Source: a virus (Duplodnaviria; Heunggongvirae; Uroviricota; Caudoviricetes). From it: a DNA stretch of 22,878 bases. Position numbers and translations under genes: made by a program. Below, piece by piece: positions 5,756 through 21,878 of this stretch (its first letter is position 1; every line of letters starts with the position of its first letter). The stretch lies in IMG/VR virus record IMGVR_UViG_2574180019_000007. One strand, 5' to 3'. The notes beneath the pieces were generated by a model. The model ran no database searches. It was given only the letters and a program-made list of their open reading frames with translations, and was not told the DNA's origin.

Positions 5756-6182
5756 ACCGGACTCCTCCTGCGATCCCTTCTGATACTGTCATCAGCATTA
5801 CGTCATCCTCCGTCATGCCCGCCATATCCGGGGAAGCGGGGATAACTTCATTTCCGTCCGGGTCAAAGCGGACGCCTCCGGTAAGCCCTGCCGCTTTCTG
5901 CATCAGCACATCATCTTCAGGCTCTTCGTCATCCTCACGCCGGTTCAGCAAACTGAAATCCAGCGGATGCATATCCGGATCGCTGAAAAACAGGCTGAGC
6001 ACAGTGTACGTCAGCCCGGAAAAGTGCATATCCAGCAGAACATCATGAAAATAATGGGTACTGTAAAAGCGGTGCCAGTCGGCATACTCCGTGGATGACA
6101 TCCCGGCAAGCATGGCGCGCCAGTCAGGTCGCCCCATCTCTCGCGCCAGTTTCAGGGCAAAACTCAGCTCACCGTCGAACAC
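5748..6182 (-). CDS. T: T segment of the G-T tail assembly chaperone, expressed as a fusion by -1 frameshift from G
   Basis: 144-aa ORF in the -1 frame relative to G, overlapping the G 3' end. The slippery heptamer GGGAAAG lies at the overlap. The T frame has no independent RBS-bearing start that I can see. Confidence 0.8.
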   Translation of the reverse strand: MFDGELSFALKLAREMGRPDWRAMLAGMSSTEYADWHRFYSTHYFHDVLLDMHFSGLTYTVLSLFFSDPDMHPLDFSLLNRREDDEEPEDDVLMQKAAGLTGGVRFDPDGNEVIPASPDMAGMTEDDVMLMTVSEGIAGGVRYG

Positions 6183-13864: not shown

Positions 13865-15776
13865 TCACTCCTCCGGACAGCTTCGCTGCCAGTTCTTTAA
13901 GGGTTGGCCGGGTCGTCTCTTCTTCCCGGGATTTTGCCAGTACAGCCAGATCAAGCTGCCAGCGTTGCACGGACACACGTAATGCCGCGTAGGCATACAC
14001 CAGGCAGTCCAGCGCTTCGTTACGCCGCTTTTTGTTATCCCACAGCAGACGCATCTTTCCTTTTTCCCACTTCTCCACAAGCTCTTCCGCGACCAGTTGC
14101 TGCGCCTCTGTCTGCGAAAAAATCTCCGGATCATCAGGAAAACGGATGGCATACGACGTGGCTTCATCCGCAGGCGTGGGCTCGGCTTTCATACGGGCAT
14201 AGAGAATTTCTTTTGCGGTGTCCGTCCCCACTTCACACAGATAAACGCCCCGCTGATTGCGGGTTTTCGGCATGGTGATCACCGGCTTGCCATAGACAGA
14301 CGCGCCTTTTACCGGCAGCACCCGGAAAACACCGTGTTTTTTTGACCTCTGATAAACGATTTCGCCATCGATCCCCCCGATGTCCCAGCAGACACGGGAA
14401 ATGGTCATTTCGGTTCCGTCTGCATGGCGGTATTTTTTGTTGATCGCCGCATCCACACGTAACAGCGTCTCTTCCTCATCGGGACGCCCCATAATGATGA
14501 TTTTATCCACCAGAAAGGCTTCCTCTCCCGGAGCCCATCCCCAGACATACATCTCAAAACGGTTTCGCTGCGAGTCAATGCCCGCCGTCAGATAAACCAC
14601 CCGGGCAGGCACCGCCGCCGTGTAACGCACAACCTTATCCATCAGCACCTGGTGATCGAGTTTTTCGCCCACAGCCTCTTCCCAGGTCTCGCCCAGCGTG
14701 GTGTTCACAAAGGTTTTCAGGCCGTTGGGATCTTTCAGTGCATCCAGCCAGTCATAGACAATCTGTACCCAGGTGGTGAACGGACTGTACGCCGTCCAGA
14801 TATGGAAAGTGATGGAGCGCGGCGGCGGAATTTCATCACCCCGGGCGCTGAAAAACATCAGGCCGTCACGGGTCCACATGCCCGTGTTTTCACAGATCCA
14901 CCGCCCGTTACTCTGGTCAAGCTCAGACTGATGGATCACACAGCCATGATGCTCACAAAGGTAGAAAACACTTTCTGGCTTATTCTTCTCCCACTTAAGA
15001 CCGAAAGGCGAGGCATCATCGCCAAATTTCAGATACTGCTCCTCCCCACAGTGCGGACAGGGCACATAAAAACGCATGAAGTGTGCCGACTCGTTAGCGG
15101 CTTTTTCGATCTGGCAGGAGCCTTTGATTTTAGGCGTCGAGCCGCGAATGGATTTTGGCCATACAGAGCCCTCAATACGTTTATCCCCCAGCAGGGTTGG
15201 CGAACCCTCTTTTTCAACATCCGGTTCGAACGAGGAAAGCTCGTCATAACAGACCACATCCACGGATTTTTCACGGTAGTTTTTTGCTGCCGCACCACCC
15301 AGACACCAGAACCCCACACCGGAGGAAAAACGCTTCAGGGTGAGCGTATTATCGCGGTGTTTTCTTCCGAACCATGGAGCCAGCTCCAGCAATGCAGGAA
15401 CATCCCTTATCGTTGGCTCAACATGAGATTTCATAAAATCTTCAGCAGCTGAGTCCGTGGGCTGAAAAAGAAGGCTGTTGCGTGATTTATGCTCAATAAA
15501 ATAAGCCTCCACTCCCAGCAACATCTTTGTATAACCAACACGGGCAGATTTAATCAGGTTAACCGTGCGAATCAGATCGTTGCCCATACAGTTCATGATG
15601 CCAACCTGAAACGGCAGTGTTTCCCATCGCCCCGGGGTATAAGACGACTCTTTAGGAAGGTAATAATGTTTATTGGCCCACTGAACTGTCGTCAGTGGAA
15701 CAGGAATAATGAGAGATAAAAGCCCTGTAGCTATCGCACCGGCTGCATTAGCTGCCTTCTGCGCGTCTGAAATCAT
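13848..15776 (-). CDS. A: Terminase large subunit A
   Basis: Contains [20 protein letters not shown], Walker-type ATPase region, and the C-terminal nuclease region (WDIGGIDG..., [19 protein letters not shown]) as in lambda gpA. Start placed at the ATG at 15774-15776 (MISDAQ...), giving a ~29-nt overlap with Nu1 comparable to lambda. The upstream ATG at 15816-15818 is an alternative. Confidence 0.9.
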
Positions 15777-16296
15777 CGATCCACCCGCCCACGTTTTCAC
15801 CGGCCTTAGCTGCAACATTGGAGGCTTTCGCGATTTCAGTTTTCACCACATCAAGGTGTGATGGTGAAATGTCCGGATATTTACGCTGTAATGTCAACGG
15901 CACACGCACAAGTATCCCCGAAATCTCCTGTGCCACACGTTGCAGAATGAAGGTAAACAGTTCAGTTTCCAGCACTACTCCGTCTTCACGGGCATTTTTC
16001 AGTTCCTGCGCATCTGCCTGCGCTTTTGTGAGCCGGTAGCGTTCATAGTCAATGGTGCCGGGTTGTAAATCTGACTCCGCTGCCGCACGCAAATCGTCCA
16101 GTTCTTTGCGGAGCTTTTCGTTTTCGATATCAGTTTCCCTCTGCGCATACCACTGAATTGCCATGGCAGTATCAAATACAGATTCAATGCCCTTACTACC
16201 TTTGGAGGCGCAAGGGAGTCCCTGAGACTGCCAGCGTTCAATCGTCCGCGGGTCCACGTTGAAAATTTCGGCAAGCCTCTTTTTATTAACCTTCAT
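15748..16296 (-). CDS. Nu1: Terminase small subunit Nu1
   Basis: 182-aa [31 protein letters not shown]... with winged-HTH N-terminus and the blocks [44 protein letters not shown] matching remembered lambda Nu1. Immediately adjacent to cos. Confidence 0.9.
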
Positions 16297-16472: not shown

Positions 16473-16484
16473 AGGTCGCCGCCC
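16473..16484. other. cosN: 12-nt cohesive-end sequence (reverse complement of GGGCGGCGACCT)
   Basis: Plus strand reads AGGTCGCCGCCC at 16473-16484, flanked by CGCG on one side and CGTAACCTGTTGGATCG on the other. This is the reverse complement of the lambda genome ends (...ACAGGTTACG / GGGCGGCGACCTCGCGGG...). Confidence 0.85.
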
Positions 16485-16535
16485 CGTAACCTGTTGGATC
16501 GACGGAAAGGACCCGAAAACGAGAATAATTATCAC

Positions 16536-16565
16536 TTACAGCAAGAATCGAATCTGATCTATTAT
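16536..16565 (+). promoter_or_regulatory. Candidate sigma70 promoter for the plus-strand small-ORF pair
   Basis: TTACAG (16536-16541), 18-nt spacer, TATTAT (16560-16565), about 70 bp upstream of the 16633 start. Assigned by eye only. Confidence 0.25.
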
Positions 16566-16632
16566 GGTGCTTGCTATTATGTGCCGGCACAAGTGCGTCG
16601 TTTACCGTCATTTCACACAGAGGCATCATCAA

Positions 16633-16884
16633 ATGAAAATCAGAAATATTCTCGCTATCTCCCTTGCGACATCATCCTTCAGTTGCCTGGCATTTAAATC
16701 CTCGCCCAATGTGCTACCAGGACCAACGAATCAACTAACTGCGGTAGAAAGTAAAATTATCGGACATTTTTATGCCCCACACAGTACATTACCCGGAACA
16801 ACCATCACAGGGACATGTGACGCCTCCCCCGTCCCGGGATGCACCTGTCCGTTTTGTACTATGCTGCGTAGCCAAAACCGATAA
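16633..16884 (+). CDS. Small secreted Cys-rich protein of unknown function (83 aa, predicted Sec signal peptide)
   Basis: ATG at 16633 preceded by RBS AGAGG. N-terminus MKIRNILAISLATSSFSCLA is signal-peptide-like. C-terminus has a CDASPVPGCTCPFC cluster. Transcribed opposite to the late operon. Confidence 0.5.
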   Translation: MKIRNILAISLATSSFSCLAFKSSPNVLPGPTNQLTAVESKIIGHFYAPHSTLPGTTITGTCDASPVPGCTCPFCTMLRSQNR

Positions 16885-16945
16885 CATCCGCATTTACCTG
16901 GTATTCCATGATGAGTTCACGCAGCGACTGATAGAGGAAGGAAAG

Positions 16946-17125
16946 ATGGTTAGTAAAAGCAAGGCGCATTGCCGCCGCATGCTGCAGGCATTGCAACAGA
17001 CGAGAGCAGGTATTTTTGACCAGTTGGAAAACTGCCAGCATACTTTGCCCGAGTATATCGCCATCTCATCGGAAACCAGTGCAACTCTTATTCATCGGGT
17101 TCCACCAGAGAAAAAGAAGAAATGA
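16946..17125 (+). CDS. Small hypothetical protein (59 aa, basic C-terminus)
   Basis: ATG at 16946 preceded by a strong RBS (GAGGAAGGAAAG). Followed by a hairpin terminator. No recognisable domain. Confidence 0.4.
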   Translation: MVSKSKAHCRRMLQALQQTRAGIFDQLENCQHTLPEYIAISSETSATLIHRVPPEKKKK

Positions 17126-17132
17126 ACAGTGA

Positions 17133-17165
17133 GGCGTTGTGTGGCATACAACGCCTTCTTCCATC
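17133..17165 (+). terminator. Candidate intrinsic terminator after the small-ORF pair
   Basis: AGGCGTTGT (17133-17141), loop GTGGCAT, ACAACGCCT (17149-17157), followed by TCTTCCATCATTCC. The pyrimidine tract is only moderately U-rich. Confidence 0.4.
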
Positions 17166-17247
17166 ATTCCTCGTCAGCCATGACAAAAATATAACCGCTG
17201 GCTCTTTCATTTTTCTCCTGCTTCCAGCCCCTCTCTACCTGGAAGCA

Positions 17248-17574
17248 TCAAGGACGTGACGGCGTAAAGATAAATTGTCTCTTCACTCCCTGACAGGGGC
17301 GATTCTTTTCAAATCGCCATTTCGCCATGGCCTTCACCACTTCATCACGAAACAAATTATGAGGCTCTGAGCGGAGAAAAACGATCCGTGTCACAGTCCC
17401 ATCAGCACCAATATCGAACTTAACCTCAACCAGCCCCTTGATATAATTTGCTGCAGCATATTCCGGATATCGTGGATACACCGTCACTAATTGCCGGGGC
17501 TCATCAGCTTTTTGCTGCGAGCATCCCACTGCCAGGACAGATAACAGAAAAAGTAGTAAAAGGCGTCTTTTCAT
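17248..17574 (-). CDS. Lipoprotein with TonB C-terminal-domain-like region (108 aa)
   Basis: ATG at 17572-17574 preceded by RBS AGGAA. N-terminus MKRRLLLLFLLSVLAVGC is a lipoprotein signal with lipobox LAVGC. The remainder, YPRYPEYAAANYIKGLVEVKFDIGADGTVTRIVFLRSEPHNLFRDEVVKAMAKWRF, resembles the TonB C-terminal domain pattern (YP..A....EG.V.V.F.V..DG.V....V..S......D.A...A...WRF). Confidence 0.6.
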   Translation of the reverse strand: MKRRLLLLFLLSVLAVGCSQQKADEPRQLVTVYPRYPEYAAANYIKGLVEVKFDIGADGTVTRIVFLRSEPHNLFRDEVVKAMAKWRFEKNRPCQGVKRQFIFTPSRP

Positions 17575-18054
17575 TTTTATTCCTACGGGTCTTATTCTGA
17601 CAATATATCCTGTGTTCCAGACTGCCACATCACCACATCCTGTGCCATTATCTGACTCACATTACATACATCGCATCGGGATACAGTAGTAGCACTTTCT
17701 GTAATACAGCTTCCTGTTTCTTCCACCATCGCACCGGGATAAACCCGCGAATCATTAACGCGGTAAAAACCCGGTGTGCATCGTTTTTAATTATTCCCGC
17801 ACACTCACGCAGAAGGAATTCCCCGTCGGGCTACGGTCATGGTTAATGCGGGAATACGGCGACGATACAGCGCAGCTAAAAGGGTAATGGACGGATAGAC
17901 CGGTTTATTTCATTCCACAGGATTCTGAGTGTCCCCAACTTCCTCCAATAGTCTGAGCCCACCTGTGTAGTTTTAATTTTCATCAATCCATTTAACTATC
18001 GTTTAATTGTTGTCACATAGGATTCTGCCGTTTTTAACAATGCAGGATAATAAG

Positions 18055-18348
18055 ATGAAAAAAATGTTGTTTTCTGCCGCTCTGGCAATGCTTATTACAG
18101 GATGTGCTCAACAGACGTTTACTGTTGGAAACAAACCTACAGCAGTAACACCAAAGGAAACCATCACCCATCATTTCTTCGTTTCGGGAATTGGGCAGAA
18201 GAAAACTGTCGATGCAGCAAAAATTTGTGGTGGTGCAGAAAATGTTGTTAAAACAGAAACCCAGCAAACATTCGTAAATGGATTGCTCGGTTTTATTACT
18301 TTAGGCATTTATACTCCGCTGGAAGCGCGTGTGTATTGCTCACAATAA
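18055..18348 (+). CDS. bor: Bor outer-membrane lipoprotein (serum-resistance factor)
   Basis: 97-aa product MKKMLFSAALAMLITGCAQQTFTV...PLEARVYCSQ matches my memory of lambda Bor (97 aa), with lipobox LITGC. Oriented opposite to the late genes, as in lambda. Confidence 0.9.
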   Translation: MKKMLFSAALAMLITGCAQQTFTVGNKPTAVTPKETITHHFFVSGIGQKKTVDAAKICGGAENVVKTETQQTFVNGLLGFITLGIYTPLEARVYCSQ

Positions 18349-18379: not shown

Positions 18380-18841
18380 CTATCTGCACTGCTCATTAAT
18401 ATACTTCTGGGTTCCTTCCAGTTGTTTTTGCATAGTGATCAGCCTCTCTCTGAGGGTGAAATAATCCCGTTCAGCGGTGTCTGCCAGTCGGGGGGAGGCT
18501 GCATTATCCACGCCGGAGGCGGTGGTGGCTTCACGCACTGACTGACAGACTGCTTTGATGTGCAACCGACGACGACCAGCGGCAACATCATCACGCAGAG
18601 CATCATTTTCAGCTTTCGCATCAGCTAACTCCTTCGTGTATTTTGCATCGAGCGCAGCAACATCACGCTGACGCATCTGTATGTCAGTAATTGCCGCGTT
18701 CGCCAGCGTCAGTTCTCTGGCATTTTTGTCGCGCTGGGCTTTGTAGGTAATGGCGTTATCACGGTAATGATTAACAGCCCATGACAGGCAGACGATGATG
18801 CAGATAACCAGAGCGGAGATAATCGCGGTTACTCTGTTCAT
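18380..18841 (-). CDS. Rz: Inner-membrane spanin subunit Rz
   Basis: Sequence from [43 protein letters not shown]... to ...YINEQCR matches remembered lambda Rz. Start placed at the ATG overlapping the R stop (153 aa); the track's version starts 4 codons upstream. Confidence 0.9.
18439..18621 (-). CDS. Rz1: Outer-membrane lipoprotein spanin subunit Rz1, embedded in Rz in the +1 frame
   Basis: 60-aa [63 protein letters not shown]: lipoprotein signal, proline-rich mature peptide, nearly identical to remembered lambda Rz1. Confidence 0.85.
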
Positions 18842-19335
18842 TGCTGACCCCACAAACAGATTTCACGCTCAATCTCACGACGAGTCATGAGACCTTTCCA
18901 TTGCTTACCGCCAGCATATGTCCAGCGACGTAGCTGATCACATGCGCCTTTGATATCGCCCTGGTTTATTTTGCGAAGAAGCGTCGATGTTCTGAAATTG
19001 CCAGCACCCACGTTGTAAACGAATGAGTAAAGAGCGCCGCGCATTGTTTCCGGTATATCGACTTTGATGTACGGGTTAATTTGTCTGGCGACCGTGGCAA
19101 GGTCTTTATTCAGGAGGGCTTTGCATTCTGCTTTGGTATACGTTTTACCGAGCATGATGTCTTTTCCTGTATGCCCGTGACATACAGTCCATACACCAAC
19201 AATATCTTTGTATGGTATGTAGCTGACACCTTCCAGACCATCGTTACCACTTGGGCCAGTGATTAACACTGATGCTATAGCAATTGCTCCGCCACCAATA
19301 GCAGCAGCAACGGCTTTTCGTAATGATGGAGGCAT
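18838..19335 (-). CDS. R: SAR endolysin (T4-lysozyme-like, phage 21 R type)
   Basis: 165-aa ORF with a Gly/Ala-rich N-terminal signal-anchor-release segment ([20 protein letters not shown]), then the E-x8-D-x5-T catalytic spacing ([16 protein letters not shown]). Matches my memory of the phage 21 / DLP12 RrrD-type endolysin and is unlike the lambda R transglycosylase. Confidence 0.9.
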
Positions 19336-19711: not shown

Positions 19712-20138
19712 TAAGCTGTGTGACGAAGTAACCACTCTTAACAGCATAACCAATTTTTTACGTACGTAAACTACTAAATGATATTTGTGAGAATGCCACC
19801 GAGTGTTCAAAACACCACCACAAATGCATAAGAAAACTTCAACAAATAACCAGTTAATAATTTCCGATGTTATTTTTAGTTTGTTTAAATTAAGCTAAAG
19901 AATTATAGAGCACTTATAAATAAGTGCCATTAATATAAATTAGCTAATAGATTTATTTTTGTTCAGACAAGAGCCATGAATAGGATTAGATAGAAAAGGT
20001 TCAGATAAAAATAGAGATCTACTTCACAAATTAAATGAGAAACTAAAACTTACATCTTGAAATAATCACATTGATTAGATGAATATTTATCGCGCAGTGA
20101 CATCATTTTTTAATAAAAGTTCAAAAAAAGGGCGTACA

Positions 20139-21221
20139 ATGAAAAAATTAACAGTGGCAATTTCTGCTGTAGCTGCATCAGTACTGATGGCGATGTCTGC
20201 TCAGGCAGCTGAAATTTATAATAAAGACAGTAACAAGCTGGATCTATACGGGAAAGTTAATGCCAAGCACTACTTCTCCTCTAATGATGCAGATGATGGT
20301 GATACTACTTATGCCCGTCTTGGCTTCAAAGGTGAAACCCAAATCAACGATCAACTGACTGGTTTCGGTCAGTGGGAATATGAATTCAAAGGCAACCGTG
20401 CTGAATCTCAAGGTTCTTCCAAAGACAAAACCCGTCTTGCATTTGCAGGCCTGAAATTTGGTGATTACGGCTCAATCGATTACGGCCGTAACTACGGTGT
20501 AGCATACGACATCGGTGCGTGGACTGACGTTCTGCCAGAATTCGGTGGTGATACCTGGACCCAAACAGATGTGTTCATGACTGGTCGCACTACTGGTGTT
20601 GCAACTTATCGTAACAACGACTTCTTTGGTCTGGTCGATGGCCTGAACTTTGCTGCTCAGTATCAGGGTAAAAATGACCGCACTGACGTAACTGAAGCCA
20701 ATGGTGATGGTTTCGGTTTCTCCACTACTTATGAGTATGAAGGATTCGGCGTGGGTGCAACCTATGCTAAATCAGATCGCACTGACGGTCAGGTCGCCTA
20801 TGGTAAGAGCAAATTCAATGCCTCCGGCAAAAATGCGGAAGTATGGGCTGCAGGCCTGAAATATGATGCGAACAATATCTATCTGGCTACCACATATTCT
20901 GAAACTCAGAATATGACCGTTTTTGGTAATAACCATATTGCAAACAAAGCACAAAACTTTGAAGCAGTAGCACAATATCAGTTTGACTTCGGTCTGCGTC
21001 CATCTGTTGCTTACCTTCAGTCAAAAGGTAAAGACCTTGGTGTTCATGGTGACCGAGACTTAGTCAAGTATGTCGATGTCGGTGCTACTTACTACTTTAA
21101 TAAAAACATGTCCACTTTTGTTGATTACAAAATCAACTTAATTGACGATAGTAAGTTTACCAAAACAGCTGGTATTGATACCGACGACATCGTCGCTGTA
21201 GGTCTGGTTTATCAGTTCTAA
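20139..21221 (+). CDS. nmpC: OmpC-family general porin (NmpC / Lc-like phage-encoded porin)
   Basis: 360-aa product from ATG at 20139 (RBS AAGGG). Signal peptide [23 protein letters not shown], then [17 protein letters not shown]..., classical enterobacterial porin blocks ([81 protein letters not shown]) and C-terminal ...VGLVYQF. Opposite strand to Q and the lysis genes. The gene symbol is by analogy with DLP12. Confidence 0.9.
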
Positions 21222-21409: not shown

Positions 21410-21793
21410 TCAATTAGAATTATTAGCAACGATATCCATATCTAACCGGATATCTAATGCCATTAACATCCCTTCAATTATGCCCTCAGCCTTCTGTAAC
21501 CTTTTCCCGATATAACCATCCGAGCAGCAATGCTTACTTGCCAGTGACATGAATGTCATACCACATACATAATAATCTACTAATAAATCGTGTAAATCGC
21601 TGTTGTTCTTTTTCAGACGGGCCATGCACCCGCAAATGATCATCGCGTCATCGTCACAACATTGCGGGCGAGATTTTACTTTTGAAGGAATTAATCCCTT
21701 AAAACCGGCGGCAATGGACGACCAGGTCACATCTTCATGATTATTAGCCGCCCACGCACCCCAACGCTCAAGAACCATCTGAATATCACGCAT
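21410..21793 (-). CDS. Q: Late-gene antiterminator Q (DLP12 QuuD type)
   Basis: 127-aa product from ATG at 21791-21793 (RBS GGAG): [35 protein letters not shown]...[20 protein letters not shown].... Matches my memory of E. coli QuuD. Cys-rich zinc-binding-type motifs. Positioned upstream of the lysis genes. Confidence 0.85.
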
Positions 21794-21878
21794 CAACTTA
21801 CTCCACAAAAATCAGACCAGAACGCCAATTACAAGCAAAAATCAACAAAACAGTATTAGTTGATTGTTATCTCTGACT

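What the first reader, a model, noticed from the sequence alone, without database searches (positions are those of the whole stretch)
17248..17574. Phage-encoded lipoprotein with a TonB C-terminal-like domain next to cos
A 108-aa lipoprotein (lipobox LAVGC) whose mature part resembles the periplasmic C-terminal domain of TonB sits between bor and cos, in the late-transcription direction. Phage lipoproteins at this kind of position, such as Cor of phi80/N15 and Llp of T5, block outer-membrane receptors for superinfection exclusion. A free TonB-C-like domain anchored to a membrane could compete for TonB-box binding on TonB-dependent receptors and so block uptake of phages, colicins or siderophores. 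I do not recognise this as a lambda gene.
Basis: partly seen in the sequence, partly recalled or inferred. Interest (0 to 1): 0.6.

Follow-up and report, generated by a model that had tools for sequence, protein, structure and literature searches.

The report
Phage lipoprotein with TonB C-domain
A small gene of phage 21-type prophages, found in about 30% of complete E. coli genomes, encodes a lipoprotein that is a free copy of the receptor-docking end of TonB; databases already annotate it, nobody has tested it, and it most plausibly jams TonB-dependent entry of phages and colicins.

Summary
Window 17248-17574 (minus strand) encodes a 108-aa protein with a lipoprotein signal peptide (Cys18). 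Its mature part is a complete TonB C-terminal domain: Pfam TonB_C E=7e-13, and the AF2 model lies 0.7-1.2 A rmsd from E. coli TonB CTD, including the copies bound to BtuB and FhuA. The gene lies between bor and cosN in the late direction.

It is not a new ORF. It is 100% identical to phage 21 gene CPT_21_73 ("TonB C-terminal domain protein") and to Perceval LF82_160 ("TonB fragment"), which is reported as expressed in the lysogen. It occurs in 1617 of 5426 complete E. coli genomes.

It is not a decaying tonB fragment: dN/dS is about 0.1. It belongs to a family of ~110-aa lipoproteins in Enterobacterales. Family members are either chromosomal or sit in the lysis-terminase slot of four unrelated phage types.

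Many relatives carry a strong Fur box just upstream. The window copy does not.

I found no functional study. Best reading (confidence about 0.4): an outer-membrane-tethered TonB decoy that binds TonB boxes and dampens TonB-dependent uptake, protecting the lysogen. Main rival: an iron-uptake accessory factor.

The parts
17248..17574 (-). Gene for a 108-aa lipoprotein with a TonB C-terminal domain (identical to phage 21 CPT_21_73 and Perceval LF82_160)
   Evidence: ORF and translation; 100% protein identity to seven phage records; annotation; dN/dS 0.10-0.13 against the 72% allele group
17581..17584 (-). Shine-Dalgarno AGGA, 6 nt upstream of the ATG
   Evidence: Sequence read; annotated as RBS in phage 21
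17521..17574 (-). Signal peptide and lipobox (residues 1-18, LAVGC; Cys18 is the predicted lipidated first residue of the mature protein; +2 is Ser)
   Evidence: Cys18 invariant in family alignment A2. Of 43 family sequences with a lipobox-like Cys, none has Asp at +2. Outer-membrane sorting follows from the Lol +2 rule (established knowledge, not tested)
17266..17499 (-). TonB_C domain (residues 26-103), aligning without gaps to E. coli TonB 153-230, including the YP motif and strand beta3
   Evidence: Pfam, NCBIfam, PDB sequence alignments, AF2 model, Foldseek on PDB
17589..17598 (-). AGAATAAGAC: the remaining arm of a palindrome (AGAATAAGAC/TTATTCT) that is complete in the 72% allele group. 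A 13-nt gap removes the other arm here. It lies where relatives carry Fur boxes
   Evidence: Upstream alignment and upstream sequences; the best Fur match upstream of the window gene is only 11/19, not significant
17766..17870 (.). Shared lambdoid backbone upstream of bor (bor-promoter region); marks the left edge of the variable insert that holds the gene
   Evidence: 432 phage records match, lambda-type phages only over this part; HK629 annotates a promoter on the bor strand here
18055..18348 (+). bor (flanking moron, opposite strand)
   Evidence: Pfam Lambda_Bor E=1e-30
18380..19335 (-). Lysis genes R (18838-19335), Rz (18380-18853) and embedded Rz1 (18439-18621), upstream in the late operon
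   Evidence: ORFs; annotation of identical DNA in PhiR57_1 and phage 21
16473..16484 (-). cosN cohesive-end sequence (reverse complement of GGGCGGCGACCT), 764 bp downstream of the gene
   Evidence: Sequence; the phage 21 record ends at window 16485, with cosQ annotated 23-29 nt inside that end
15748..16296 (-). Terminase small subunit Nu1, the next late gene after cos
   Evidence: ORF; annotation in PhiR57_1

Best explanation
The gene is a functional moron, meaning an accessory gene carried by the prophage. [quoted passage not shown] Its whole mature part, after a tether of about 7 residues, is a TonB C-terminal domain without the membrane anchor and proline-rich spacer that couple real TonB to ExbB-ExbD. 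Placed at the periplasmic face of the outer membrane, it would bind the TonB boxes of TonB-dependent transporters (FhuA, FepA, BtuB, Cir and others), and of TonB-box-bearing colicins, by the same beta-strand pairing real TonB uses. It cannot deliver energy. It would therefore compete with the scarce real TonB and dampen every TonB-dependent entry route. That would protect the lysogen, or the infected cell, against TonB-dependent phages such as T1 and phi80 and against group B colicins and microcins, at some cost to siderophore and B12 uptake. Shown here: real gene, lipobox, TonB-CTD fold, purifying selection, wide distribution, and reported transcription in a lysogen. Inferred: outer-membrane location, TonB-box binding, inhibitory direction, and the defensive benefit.
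For: Domain and fold: Pfam TonB_C E=7e-13. Ungapped alignment to TonB 150-230. AF2 blocks over residues 31-100 at pLDDT 97-98. The model lies 0.7-1.2 A rmsd from E. coli TonB CTD, including TonB as bound to BtuB (2gsk_B) and FhuA (2grx_C). The core residues equivalent to TonB Y163, P164, F180, G186, F202, W213 and F230 are kept (Y36, P37, F53, G59, F75, W86, F103), and Y215 is conservatively F88. Strand beta3, which pairs with the FhuA TonB box (PMC11658791), is present (E94-103). No energy-coupling part: 66-69 bits against cut-offs of 265-377 for the best three TonB equivalog models, and 18 of the 25 residues before the domain are the signal peptide. Lipoprotein: Cys18 is invariant, +2 is never Asp and the tether is short across the family. 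Selection: dN/dS 0.10-0.13 between allele groups whose dS is saturated (about 1.4); the seven alleles 99.1-99.7% identical in DNA differ from the window allele only by 1-3 synonymous changes; one 97.2% allele has four amino-acid changes. Spread: 1617 of 5426 complete E. coli genomes. Four unrelated phage backbones carry it in the same lysis-to-terminase slot. Expression: the identical gene LF82_160 is 8-fold above prophage background in an LB-grown lysogen (PMC9928086 Table 1). Precedent: overexpressed periplasmic TonB domain inhibits TBDT iron import, and a TonB-box peptide reduces colicin killing and phi80 infection (PMC9841981, citing Howard 2001 and Tuckman 1992). Link to iron and TonB physiology: Fur boxes of 14-17/19 lie 9-46 nt upstream of ten relatives, and no shuffle reached the scores of 15/19 or more.
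Against: I found no experiment on this protein or any family member in seven literature searches. The TonB positions most directly tied to Ton-box and plug contact are not kept: Q160 becomes Y33, and R166 becomes Y39. The Q160 column varies across the family. Many chromosomal relatives appear to be induced by iron starvation through Fur, together with the uptake machinery, which is odd for a pure inhibitor. No sigma-70-like promoter was found directly upstream on the gene's strand, and expression evidence is one table entry from one strain. It matches no PADLOC defence model. A general TonB block would cost the host iron and B12. The phage's sitABCD could compensate, but co-occurrence is not specific: the 8 records carrying diverged alleles (the 72% group and the Klebsiella phage) are not among the sitA matches listed, and 19 of the 26 E. 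coli phage records with sitA lack the gene. Whether a 7-residue tether lets the domain reach a TonB box was not modelled.
Confidence: 0.4

Rival explanations
1. Iron-uptake accessory or regulator. The family is a Fur-regulon lipoprotein that assists or tunes TonB-dependent transport, for example by holding extended TonB boxes or plugs, organising transporters, or buffering competition for scarce TonB. The phage copy would be a lysogen fitness factor for iron-poor niches, like the sitABCD cargo of the same phage, not an exclusion factor.
For: Strong Fur boxes (14-17/19, with overlapping registers) lie 9-46 nt upstream of the gene in Serratia, Erwinia, Pantoea, Klebsiella and Raoultella. They are almost the only such matches in each 12-kb locus. 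Many copies are ordinary chromosomal genes outside prophages. Phage 21-type phages also carry sitABCD, and Perceval expresses both.
Against: A TonB domain with no link to ExbBD cannot energise transport, so no positive mechanism is known. The only experimental analogue, exported TonB fragments, is inhibitory. The window copy and the O157-type copies lack a convincing Fur box. Four loci in the set (L093, L095, L096, L100) have none.
Confidence: 0.25
2. The TonB_C fold is used here for a different ligand, such as peptidoglycan, OmpA, Lpp or another periplasmic protein. The protein would be an envelope-stabilising or surface-modifying lipoprotein, broadly like its neighbour Bor, with no action on TonB boxes.
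For: TonB_C domains occur in many non-TonB architectures; the representative search returned many long proteins with several matched TonB_C stretches. The residues equivalent to Q160 and R166 differ. The gene sits next to bor in a slot that holds other envelope morons.
Against: It is closest to true enterobacterial TonB CTDs (38-42% identity, rmsd about 1 A). Fur boxes in relatives point to iron physiology.
Confidence: 0.12
3. A late lytic-cycle function. The protein is made from the Q-antiterminated late transcript and acts during lysis or release: a spanin-like lysis accessory, as the PHROG label suggests, or a block on superinfection late in infection.
For: It has the same orientation as the late operon, immediately after the lysis genes in all four phage types. 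PHROG 1267 is labelled 'Rz-like spanin' (E=5e-43). No own promoter or terminator was identified.
Against: The window already has a canonical Rz/Rz1 pair. The protein has no C-terminal membrane segment and no proline-rich o-spanin body; it is a globular TonB_C domain. It is transcribed in an uninduced lysogen. Relatives are chromosomal genes. The Serratia prophage copy has its own Fur box.
Confidence: 0.08
4. A non-functional remnant: a piece of a host tonB gene picked up by the phage, as the labels 'TonB fragment' and 'partial tonB-like' imply.
For: Those public labels. It covers only the last third of TonB.
Against: It is only 38-40% identical to E. coli TonB. It has its own signal peptide and lipobox with an invariant Cys. 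dN/dS is about 0.1 across saturated synonymous divergence. The reading frame is intact in all 20 distinct alleles recovered from the 80 viral contigs and 3 phage records examined. It is a full-length member of a family with the same ~110-aa architecture in at least eight genera.
Confidence: 0.03

Closest known systems
C-terminal domain of E. coli TonB (residues ~150-239; PDB 1u07, 1xx3, 2gsk_B, 2grx_C)
   Same: Same fold, with rmsd 0.7-1.2 A and 38-40% identity over about 80 residues without gaps. The YP motif, the core aromatic residues and strand beta3 that pairs with TonB boxes are kept.
   Different: No N-terminal membrane anchor and no proline-rich spacer, so no coupling to ExbB-ExbD. It has a lipoprotein signal and a ~7-residue tether instead, so it would be anchored from the opposite membrane. 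The Q160 and R166 equivalents are Tyr. It ends 5 residues after the F230 equivalent, where TonB has 9.
Engineered periplasmic TonB fragments (Howard, Herrmann, Stratilo and Braun 2001, J Bacteriol 183:5885; cited in PMC9841981)
   Same: A TonB domain delivered to the periplasm without its energy-coupled anchor, reported to inhibit TBDT-mediated iron import. This is the proposed mode of action.
   Different: Those fragments are laboratory constructs of TonB itself, soluble and overexpressed. This is a natural, diverged, lipid-anchored protein under selection. I could not read the original paper.
Cor (phi80, N15, HK022, mEp167) and Llp (T5) superinfection-exclusion lipoproteins
   Same: Small phage-encoded outer-membrane lipoproteins that disable a TonB-dependent receptor, FhuA, from the periplasmic side (Llp: bioRxiv 10.64898/2026.03.26.714494 abstract).
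   Different: No sequence relationship; Pfam finds only TonB_C. Cor and Llp are specific for FhuA, whereas a TonB-box binder would act on all TonB-dependent transporters. Their genes lie near tail or receptor-binding genes (general knowledge); this one lies in the lysis-terminase slot.
Lambdoid late-region morons (bor, lom, prophage porin NmpC/OmpD, sitABCD)
   Same: An accessory envelope gene inserted between conserved phage modules, transcribed in the lysogen, and exchanged between phages.
   Different: Different protein family; no tested phenotype.

Membership tests
Pfam TonB_C (PF03544) domain family | Profile match above the gathering score | tested here: met
   49.2 bits against 24.6, E=7.3e-13, residues 33-99; TIGR01352 tonB_Cterm 47.4 bits against 27.1
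Pfam TonB_C (PF03544) domain family | TonB CTD fold: a three-stranded sheet packed against two helices | tested here: met
   AF2 blocks over residues 31-100 at pLDDT 97-98; Foldseek probability 1.00, TM 0.87-0.92 on the target, rmsd 0.7-1.2 A to 1u07, 2gsk_B and 2grx_C
TonB energy transducer (NCBIfam equivalogs NF008081-NF008084) | Full-length match above the equivalog cut-off | tested here: not met
   66-69 bits for the best three models against cut-offs of 265-377; only the last ~85 profile positions match
TonB energy transducer (NCBIfam equivalogs NF008081-NF008084) | N-terminal inner-membrane anchor plus proline-rich periplasmic spacer | tested here: not met
   The protein is 108 aa. Residues 1-18 are a cleavable lipoprotein signal and the domain starts at residue ~26
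Bacterial lipoproteins | Signal peptide ending in a lipobox with an invariant Cys | tested here: met
   MKRR + hydrophobic core + LAVGC. Cys18 is invariant in 14 of 14 aligned members and a lipobox is present in the intact genomic copies (L086-L097)
Bacterial lipoproteins | Actual lipidation, and outer-membrane sorting (no Asp at +2) | not testable with these tools
   +2 is Ser here and never Asp in 43 family sequences. Processing and location need globomycin or palmitate labelling and fractionation
Cor / Llp superinfection-exclusion lipoproteins | Sequence homology to Cor or Llp | tested here: not met
   Pfam, NCBIfam and PHROG scans give only TonB-related or generic lipoprotein hits
Cor / Llp superinfection-exclusion lipoproteins | Blocks infection through a TonB-dependent receptor when expressed | not testable with these tools
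   Needs plating assays
Spanins (label of PHROG 1267) | o-spanin: short proline-rich lipoprotein whose gene is embedded in or overlaps the i-spanin gene; u-spanin: lipobox plus C-terminal membrane segment | tested here: not met
   A canonical Rz (18380-18853) with embedded Rz1 (18439-18621) is present. This gene is separate, about 0.8 kb away with bor in between. It is globular with no C-terminal hydrophobic segment
Prophage moron | Accessory gene, absent from related phages, transcribed in the repressed lysogen | tested here: met
   The gene is absent from lambda-type phages that share the flanks. LF82_160 is 8-fold above prophage background in LB (PMC9928086). Its own promoter was not identified
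Fur regulon | Fur box overlapping the promoter region | tested here: inconclusive
   Ten relatives have 14-17/19 matches 9-46 nt upstream. The window copy has only 11/19, far upstream, and the O157-type allele has 13/19 with non-canonical 7-3-7 spacing
Known anti-phage defence systems (PADLOC-DB 2.0) | Match to any model | tested here: not met
   0 families at E<=1

The most novel reading that the evidence does not exclude
Enterobacterales have a natural, previously unrecognised class of outer-membrane-tethered TonB decoys. These small lipoproteins are often switched on by Fur together with the TonB-dependent receptors. They occupy TonB boxes and so gate all TonB-dependent traffic. Temperate phages have captured the gene at least four times. 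In the phage 21 lineage the Fur operator has been lost, which would give about 30% of E. coli strains constitutive, receptor-independent protection against TonB-dependent phages, colicins, microcins and siderophore-antibiotic conjugates.
Probability: 0.25. Interest if true: 0.75.

Novelty: new variant of a known kind. Interest (0 to 1): 0.5.

Why it matters
If the decoy reading is right, this would be the first natural exclusion or immunity factor that acts on the shared energy-coupling step, TonB-box docking, rather than on one receptor. One small gene could blunt many phages and bacteriocins at once. It sits in roughly 30% of complete E. coli genomes, including UTI89, ATCC 25922, LF82 and, as a diverged allele, O157:H7. 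It could therefore affect phage-therapy host range, colicin and microcin ecology in the gut, susceptibility to siderophore-conjugated antibiotics that enter through TonB-dependent transporters, and iron acquisition in pathogens. The Fur boxes on chromosomal relatives also point to an uncharacterised member of the iron-starvation response. Whichever reading is correct, the experiments are simple and the strains exist.

Tried and rejected
1. Single-sequence AF2 gave an unusable model (pLDDT 50.8); it was redone with a 44-sequence alignment.

2. The conserved, hairpin-rich 5' region (window 17680-17870) looked like a leader specific to the gene. It is in fact shared lambdoid backbone upstream of bor, present in 432 phage records including lambda. 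It has no Rfam match and only a modest folding z-score of -2.15. I rejected it as a dedicated regulatory RNA.

3. sitABCD as a dedicated partner that compensates for blocked siderophore uptake. All 7 records with the identical allele carry sitA. The 8 records with diverged alleles (the 72% group and the Klebsiella phage) are not among the sitA matches listed. 19 of the 26 E. coli phage records with sitA lack the gene. The pattern fits lineage linkage, not a functional module.

4. Consensus scanning and reading by eye found no convincing sigma-70 promoter on the gene's strand.

5. The 45-aa ORF just upstream (17592-17729, annotated in phage 21) lies in a region that is poorly conserved in the 72% allele group and has no Pfam hit. 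It is probably not a gene.

6. The phage's own receptor: the C-terminus of phage 21 J is only about 55% identical to that of the lambda-type phage HK629. I could not say whether the phage itself uses a TonB-dependent receptor.

7. BFVD fold search found no viral protein with this fold at E<=0.001.

8. The Howard 2001 paper is not held, so it is cited second-hand.

9. The first genome-contig query failed for lack of a conserved block. A narrower alignment worked.

Full report
**What is there**

The window is the late region of a phage 21-type lambdoid prophage, read on the opposite strand. The order on the minus strand is:
- Q (21410-21808);
- a porin gene on the plus strand (20079-21221);
- S, R (18838-19335), and Rz with embedded Rz1 (18380-18853);
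- bor on the plus strand (18055-18348);
- the gene in question (17248-17574);
- about 0.76 kb of unassigned sequence;
- cosN (AGGTCGCCGCCC, 16473-16484);
- Nu1 (15748-16296), A, and the head and tail genes.

The 2.1 kb around the gene are 100% identical to Escherichia phages PhiR57_1 and PhiR63_2. From window 16485 (the phage 21 genome end) to 18400 they are 100% identical to phage 21.

**The ORF**

The ATG at 17574 is preceded by AGGA at a 6-nt spacing, and the stop is at 17250-17248. The product is 108 aa: MKRRLLLLFLLSVLAVGC|SQQKADEPRQLVTVYPRYPEY...FIFTPSRP. One public record starts the ORF at an upstream GTG (126 aa). The RBS, the invariant Met1 and the invariant Cys18 in the family alignment favour the ATG.

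**Domain and fold**

- Pfam TonB_C scores 49.2 bits (cut-off 24.6, E=7.3e-13).
- NCBIfam TonB equivalog models align residues ~19-103 to the last ~85 positions of TonB. Their scores (45-69 bits) are far below the full-length cut-offs (265-448).
- phmmer against PDB sequences aligns residues 23-103 without a gap to E. coli TonB 150-230 (E about 1e-14). Residue n therefore corresponds to TonB n+127.
- A single-sequence AF2 run failed.
- With a 44-sequence alignment the model has mean pLDDT 87.9, and the blocks over residues 31-100 score 97-98.
- Foldseek's top PDB hits are all TonB C-terminal domains. They include E. coli 1u07, TonB bound to BtuB (2gsk_B) and TonB bound to FhuA (2grx_C), at rmsd 0.7-1.2 A and 38-40% identity.

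Residues kept: Y36/P37 (TonB Y163/P164), F53 (F180), G59 (G186), F75 (F202), W86 (W213), F88 (Y215), F103 (F230). Strand 94-103 corresponds to beta3, which forms the inter-protein sheet with the FhuA TonB box (PMC11658791).

Residues not kept: Q160 becomes Y33. The BtuB TonB box approaches this TonB position (same review). R166 becomes Y39.

The protein is not a TonB. It has no inner-membrane anchor and no proline-rich spacer. Only about 7 residues separate the lipidated Cys from the domain.

**Not new as an ORF**

The identical protein is annotated "TonB C-terminal domain protein" in phage 21 (CPT_21_73), "TonB fragment" in LF82 prophage Perceval, and "TonB family protein" by PGAP. The gene is present in 1617 of 5426 complete E. 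coli genomes. In 1202 of them it is at least 99% identical in DNA. In 392 it is a diverged allele at 60-80% identity, typical of O157:H7 and other Stx-phage hosts. PHROGs places it in phrog_1267, labelled "Rz-like spanin". That label is almost certainly an annotation artefact. The phage has a normal Rz/Rz1 pair, and this protein is a globular TonB_C domain with no C-terminal membrane segment.

**Not a gene fragment**

The window allele and the 72%-identity allele group differ by dS about 1.4 (saturated) and dN about 0.18, giving dN/dS 0.10-0.13. The seven alleles that are 99.1-99.7% identical in DNA differ from the window allele only by 1-3 synonymous changes. One 97.2% allele has four amino-acid changes.

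An exhaustive HMMER search and a profile search found a family of about 105-135-aa proteins with the same architecture: signal peptide, lipobox Cys, short tether, TonB_C. Members occur in Klebsiella, Raoultella, Serratia, Erwinia, Pantoea, Rahnella, Pseudescherichia and a genome labelled Salmonella. None of the 43 sequences with a lipobox-like Cys has Asp at +2. By the Lol sorting rule (established knowledge) that predicts outer-membrane localisation.

**Genomic settings**

Four unrelated phage backbones carry a family member in the same place and orientation, after the lysis genes and before the terminase genes:
- phage 21 / PhiR57_1 (Nu1/A, cos);
- JLK-2012 and Stx1a phages (terS/terL with an HNH-type 'restriction endonuclease' gene just upstream);
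- Klebsiella phage ST13-OXA48phi12.4;
- a Serratia montpellierensis prophage (Q, Mom, holin, lysozyme, Rz/Rz1, the gene, Terminase_2, portal).

Other members are ordinary chromosomal genes:
- Pantoea agglomerans, among metabolic genes;
- Serratia grimesii, between a CxxCxxCC-domain gene and dsbB;
- Raoultella and Klebsiella, beside genes that look like lacZ and lacI by size and N-terminal sequence (not profile-checked).

In lambda-type phages the shared sequence stops at about window 17766, and the slot holds other cargo. This is therefore a mobile accessory gene in a variable slot.

**Expression and regulation**

[quoted passage not shown] The prophage porin and sitABCD are listed with it (PMC9928086). 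I could not locate a promoter.

Scanning for the Fur consensus GATAATGATAATCATTATC gave an unexpected result. Ten relatives have 14-17/19 matches, with the overlapping registers typical of real Fur boxes, 9-46 nt upstream of the start codon. Examples:
- Serratia grimesii, 17/19;
- the S. montpellierensis prophage, Erwinia typographi, Pantoea agglomerans and a Klebsiella, 16/19 each.

None of 500 shuffles reached the scores of 15/19 or more. These are nearly the only such matches in each 12-kb locus. The window copy has no such box; its best match is 11/19, not significant. Compared with the 72% allele group it lacks 13 nt, which removes one arm of a palindrome at that position. That would fit constitutive expression in iron-replete LB, but this is inference.

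**Mechanism**

The only established activity of this domain is docking on TonB boxes by strand pairing. A copy tethered to the outer membrane and uncoupled from ExbB-ExbD cannot transduce energy, so binding would be competitive. Exported TonB periplasmic domain inhibits TBDT-mediated iron import, and a TonB-box peptide reduces colicin killing and phi80 infection (PMC9841981, citing Howard 2001 and Tuckman 1992).

I therefore favour a TonB decoy that protects the lysogen against TonB-dependent phages and bacteriocins (confidence about 0.4). The Fur boxes tie the family firmly to iron and TonB physiology. They also keep open the rival that it is an uptake accessory or regulator (about 0.25). Less likely readings are:
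- a different ligand, with an envelope role (about 0.12);
- a purely late lytic role (about 0.08);
- a dead fragment (about 0.03).

The sitABCD link is not specific. The protein matches no PADLOC model. BFVD has no viral protein with this fold. Seven literature searches found no functional study.

**Verdict**

The domain assignment is solid and already public. The functional hypothesis is reasonable, has precedent, and is untested. What this work adds:
- the gene is under strong purifying selection;
- it belongs to a distinct lipoprotein family rather than being a tonB fragment;
- it has been captured repeatedly by phages at one slot;
- its relatives look Fur-regulated, whereas this copy does not.

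Noticed in passing
L092:5916-5940, L094:5927-5951, L097:1603-1627, L101:6037-6061, L091:5967-5991, L087-L090 about 5955-5990, L086:5964-5985: Strong Fur-box matches (14-17 of 19, overlapping registers) lie 9-46 nt upstream of the TonB_C lipoprotein gene in Serratia, Erwinia, Pantoea, Klebsiella and Raoultella. They are nearly the only such matches in each 12-kb locus. The family looks like an unrecognised Fur-regulon member.
   Followed up: partly
window 16515-16539: The best Fur-box-like match in the whole window (15/19, two overlapping registers; 1 of 60 shuffles reaches it) sits just inside cosQ. It lies about 95 nt upstream of a plus-strand ORF whose internal Met (16633) starts a signal-peptide-like sequence, MKIRNILAISLATSSFSCLA... 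(83 aa). That ORF has no Pfam hit and occurs only in the same seven phage records as the TonB_C gene.
   Followed up: partly
window 16490-17210: Public records disagree on what is coded between the gene and cos. Phage 21 annotates two small minus-strand ORFs (17088-17210, 16859-17041). PhiR57_1 annotates two plus-strand ORFs (16494-16697, 16772-17125). None has a Pfam hit.
   Followed up: partly
window 20079-21221 (+): A full-length general porin gene (Pfam Porin_1, E=2e-151) is inserted between Q and the holin gene, on the opposite strand. Phage 21 has tRNA-Asn and tRNA-Thr at this position instead. The Perceval NmpC gene (LF82_1505), probably the equivalent porin, is transcribed 10-fold above background in the lysogen.
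   Followed up: partly
window 17790-17860 (minus strand): Nested inverted repeats (ATTCCCGCA...TGCGGGAAT around CCCGACGGG, then CACCGGG...CCCGGTG) lie in the shared region upstream of bor. The region is conserved in 432 phage records including lambda. It has no Rfam match and a folding z-score of only -2.15.
   Followed up: partly
PHROG phrog_1267: The PHROG family that contains this protein (E=5e-43, full length) is labelled 'Rz-like spanin' in the lysis category. The members are TonB_C lipoproteins, so the label looks like an error carried over from gene neighbourhood.
   Followed up: partly
L003:12968-16417 (phage 21 record 21967-25416, outside the window): Phage 21-type phages carry sitABCD, an Fe/Mn ABC importer that does not need TonB, downstream of the tail-fibre genes. 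It accompanies the identical TonB_C allele in all 7 records. It is also found in 19 E. coli phage records that lack the gene, and it is not among the matches listed for the records carrying diverged alleles.
   Followed up: yes
L098:6001-6294 and L099:6001-6176: In two insect-symbiont 'Candidatus Pantoea' genomes the family member appears disrupted: a frame change after about 75 residues in L098, and only a partial match in L099.
   Followed up: no
window 17221-17245 (minus strand): A 7-bp hairpin (CTTCCAG...CTGGAAG) follows the stop codon directly and has no T-run. It is not a typical intrinsic terminator, which fits late transcription continuing across cos.
   Followed up: no
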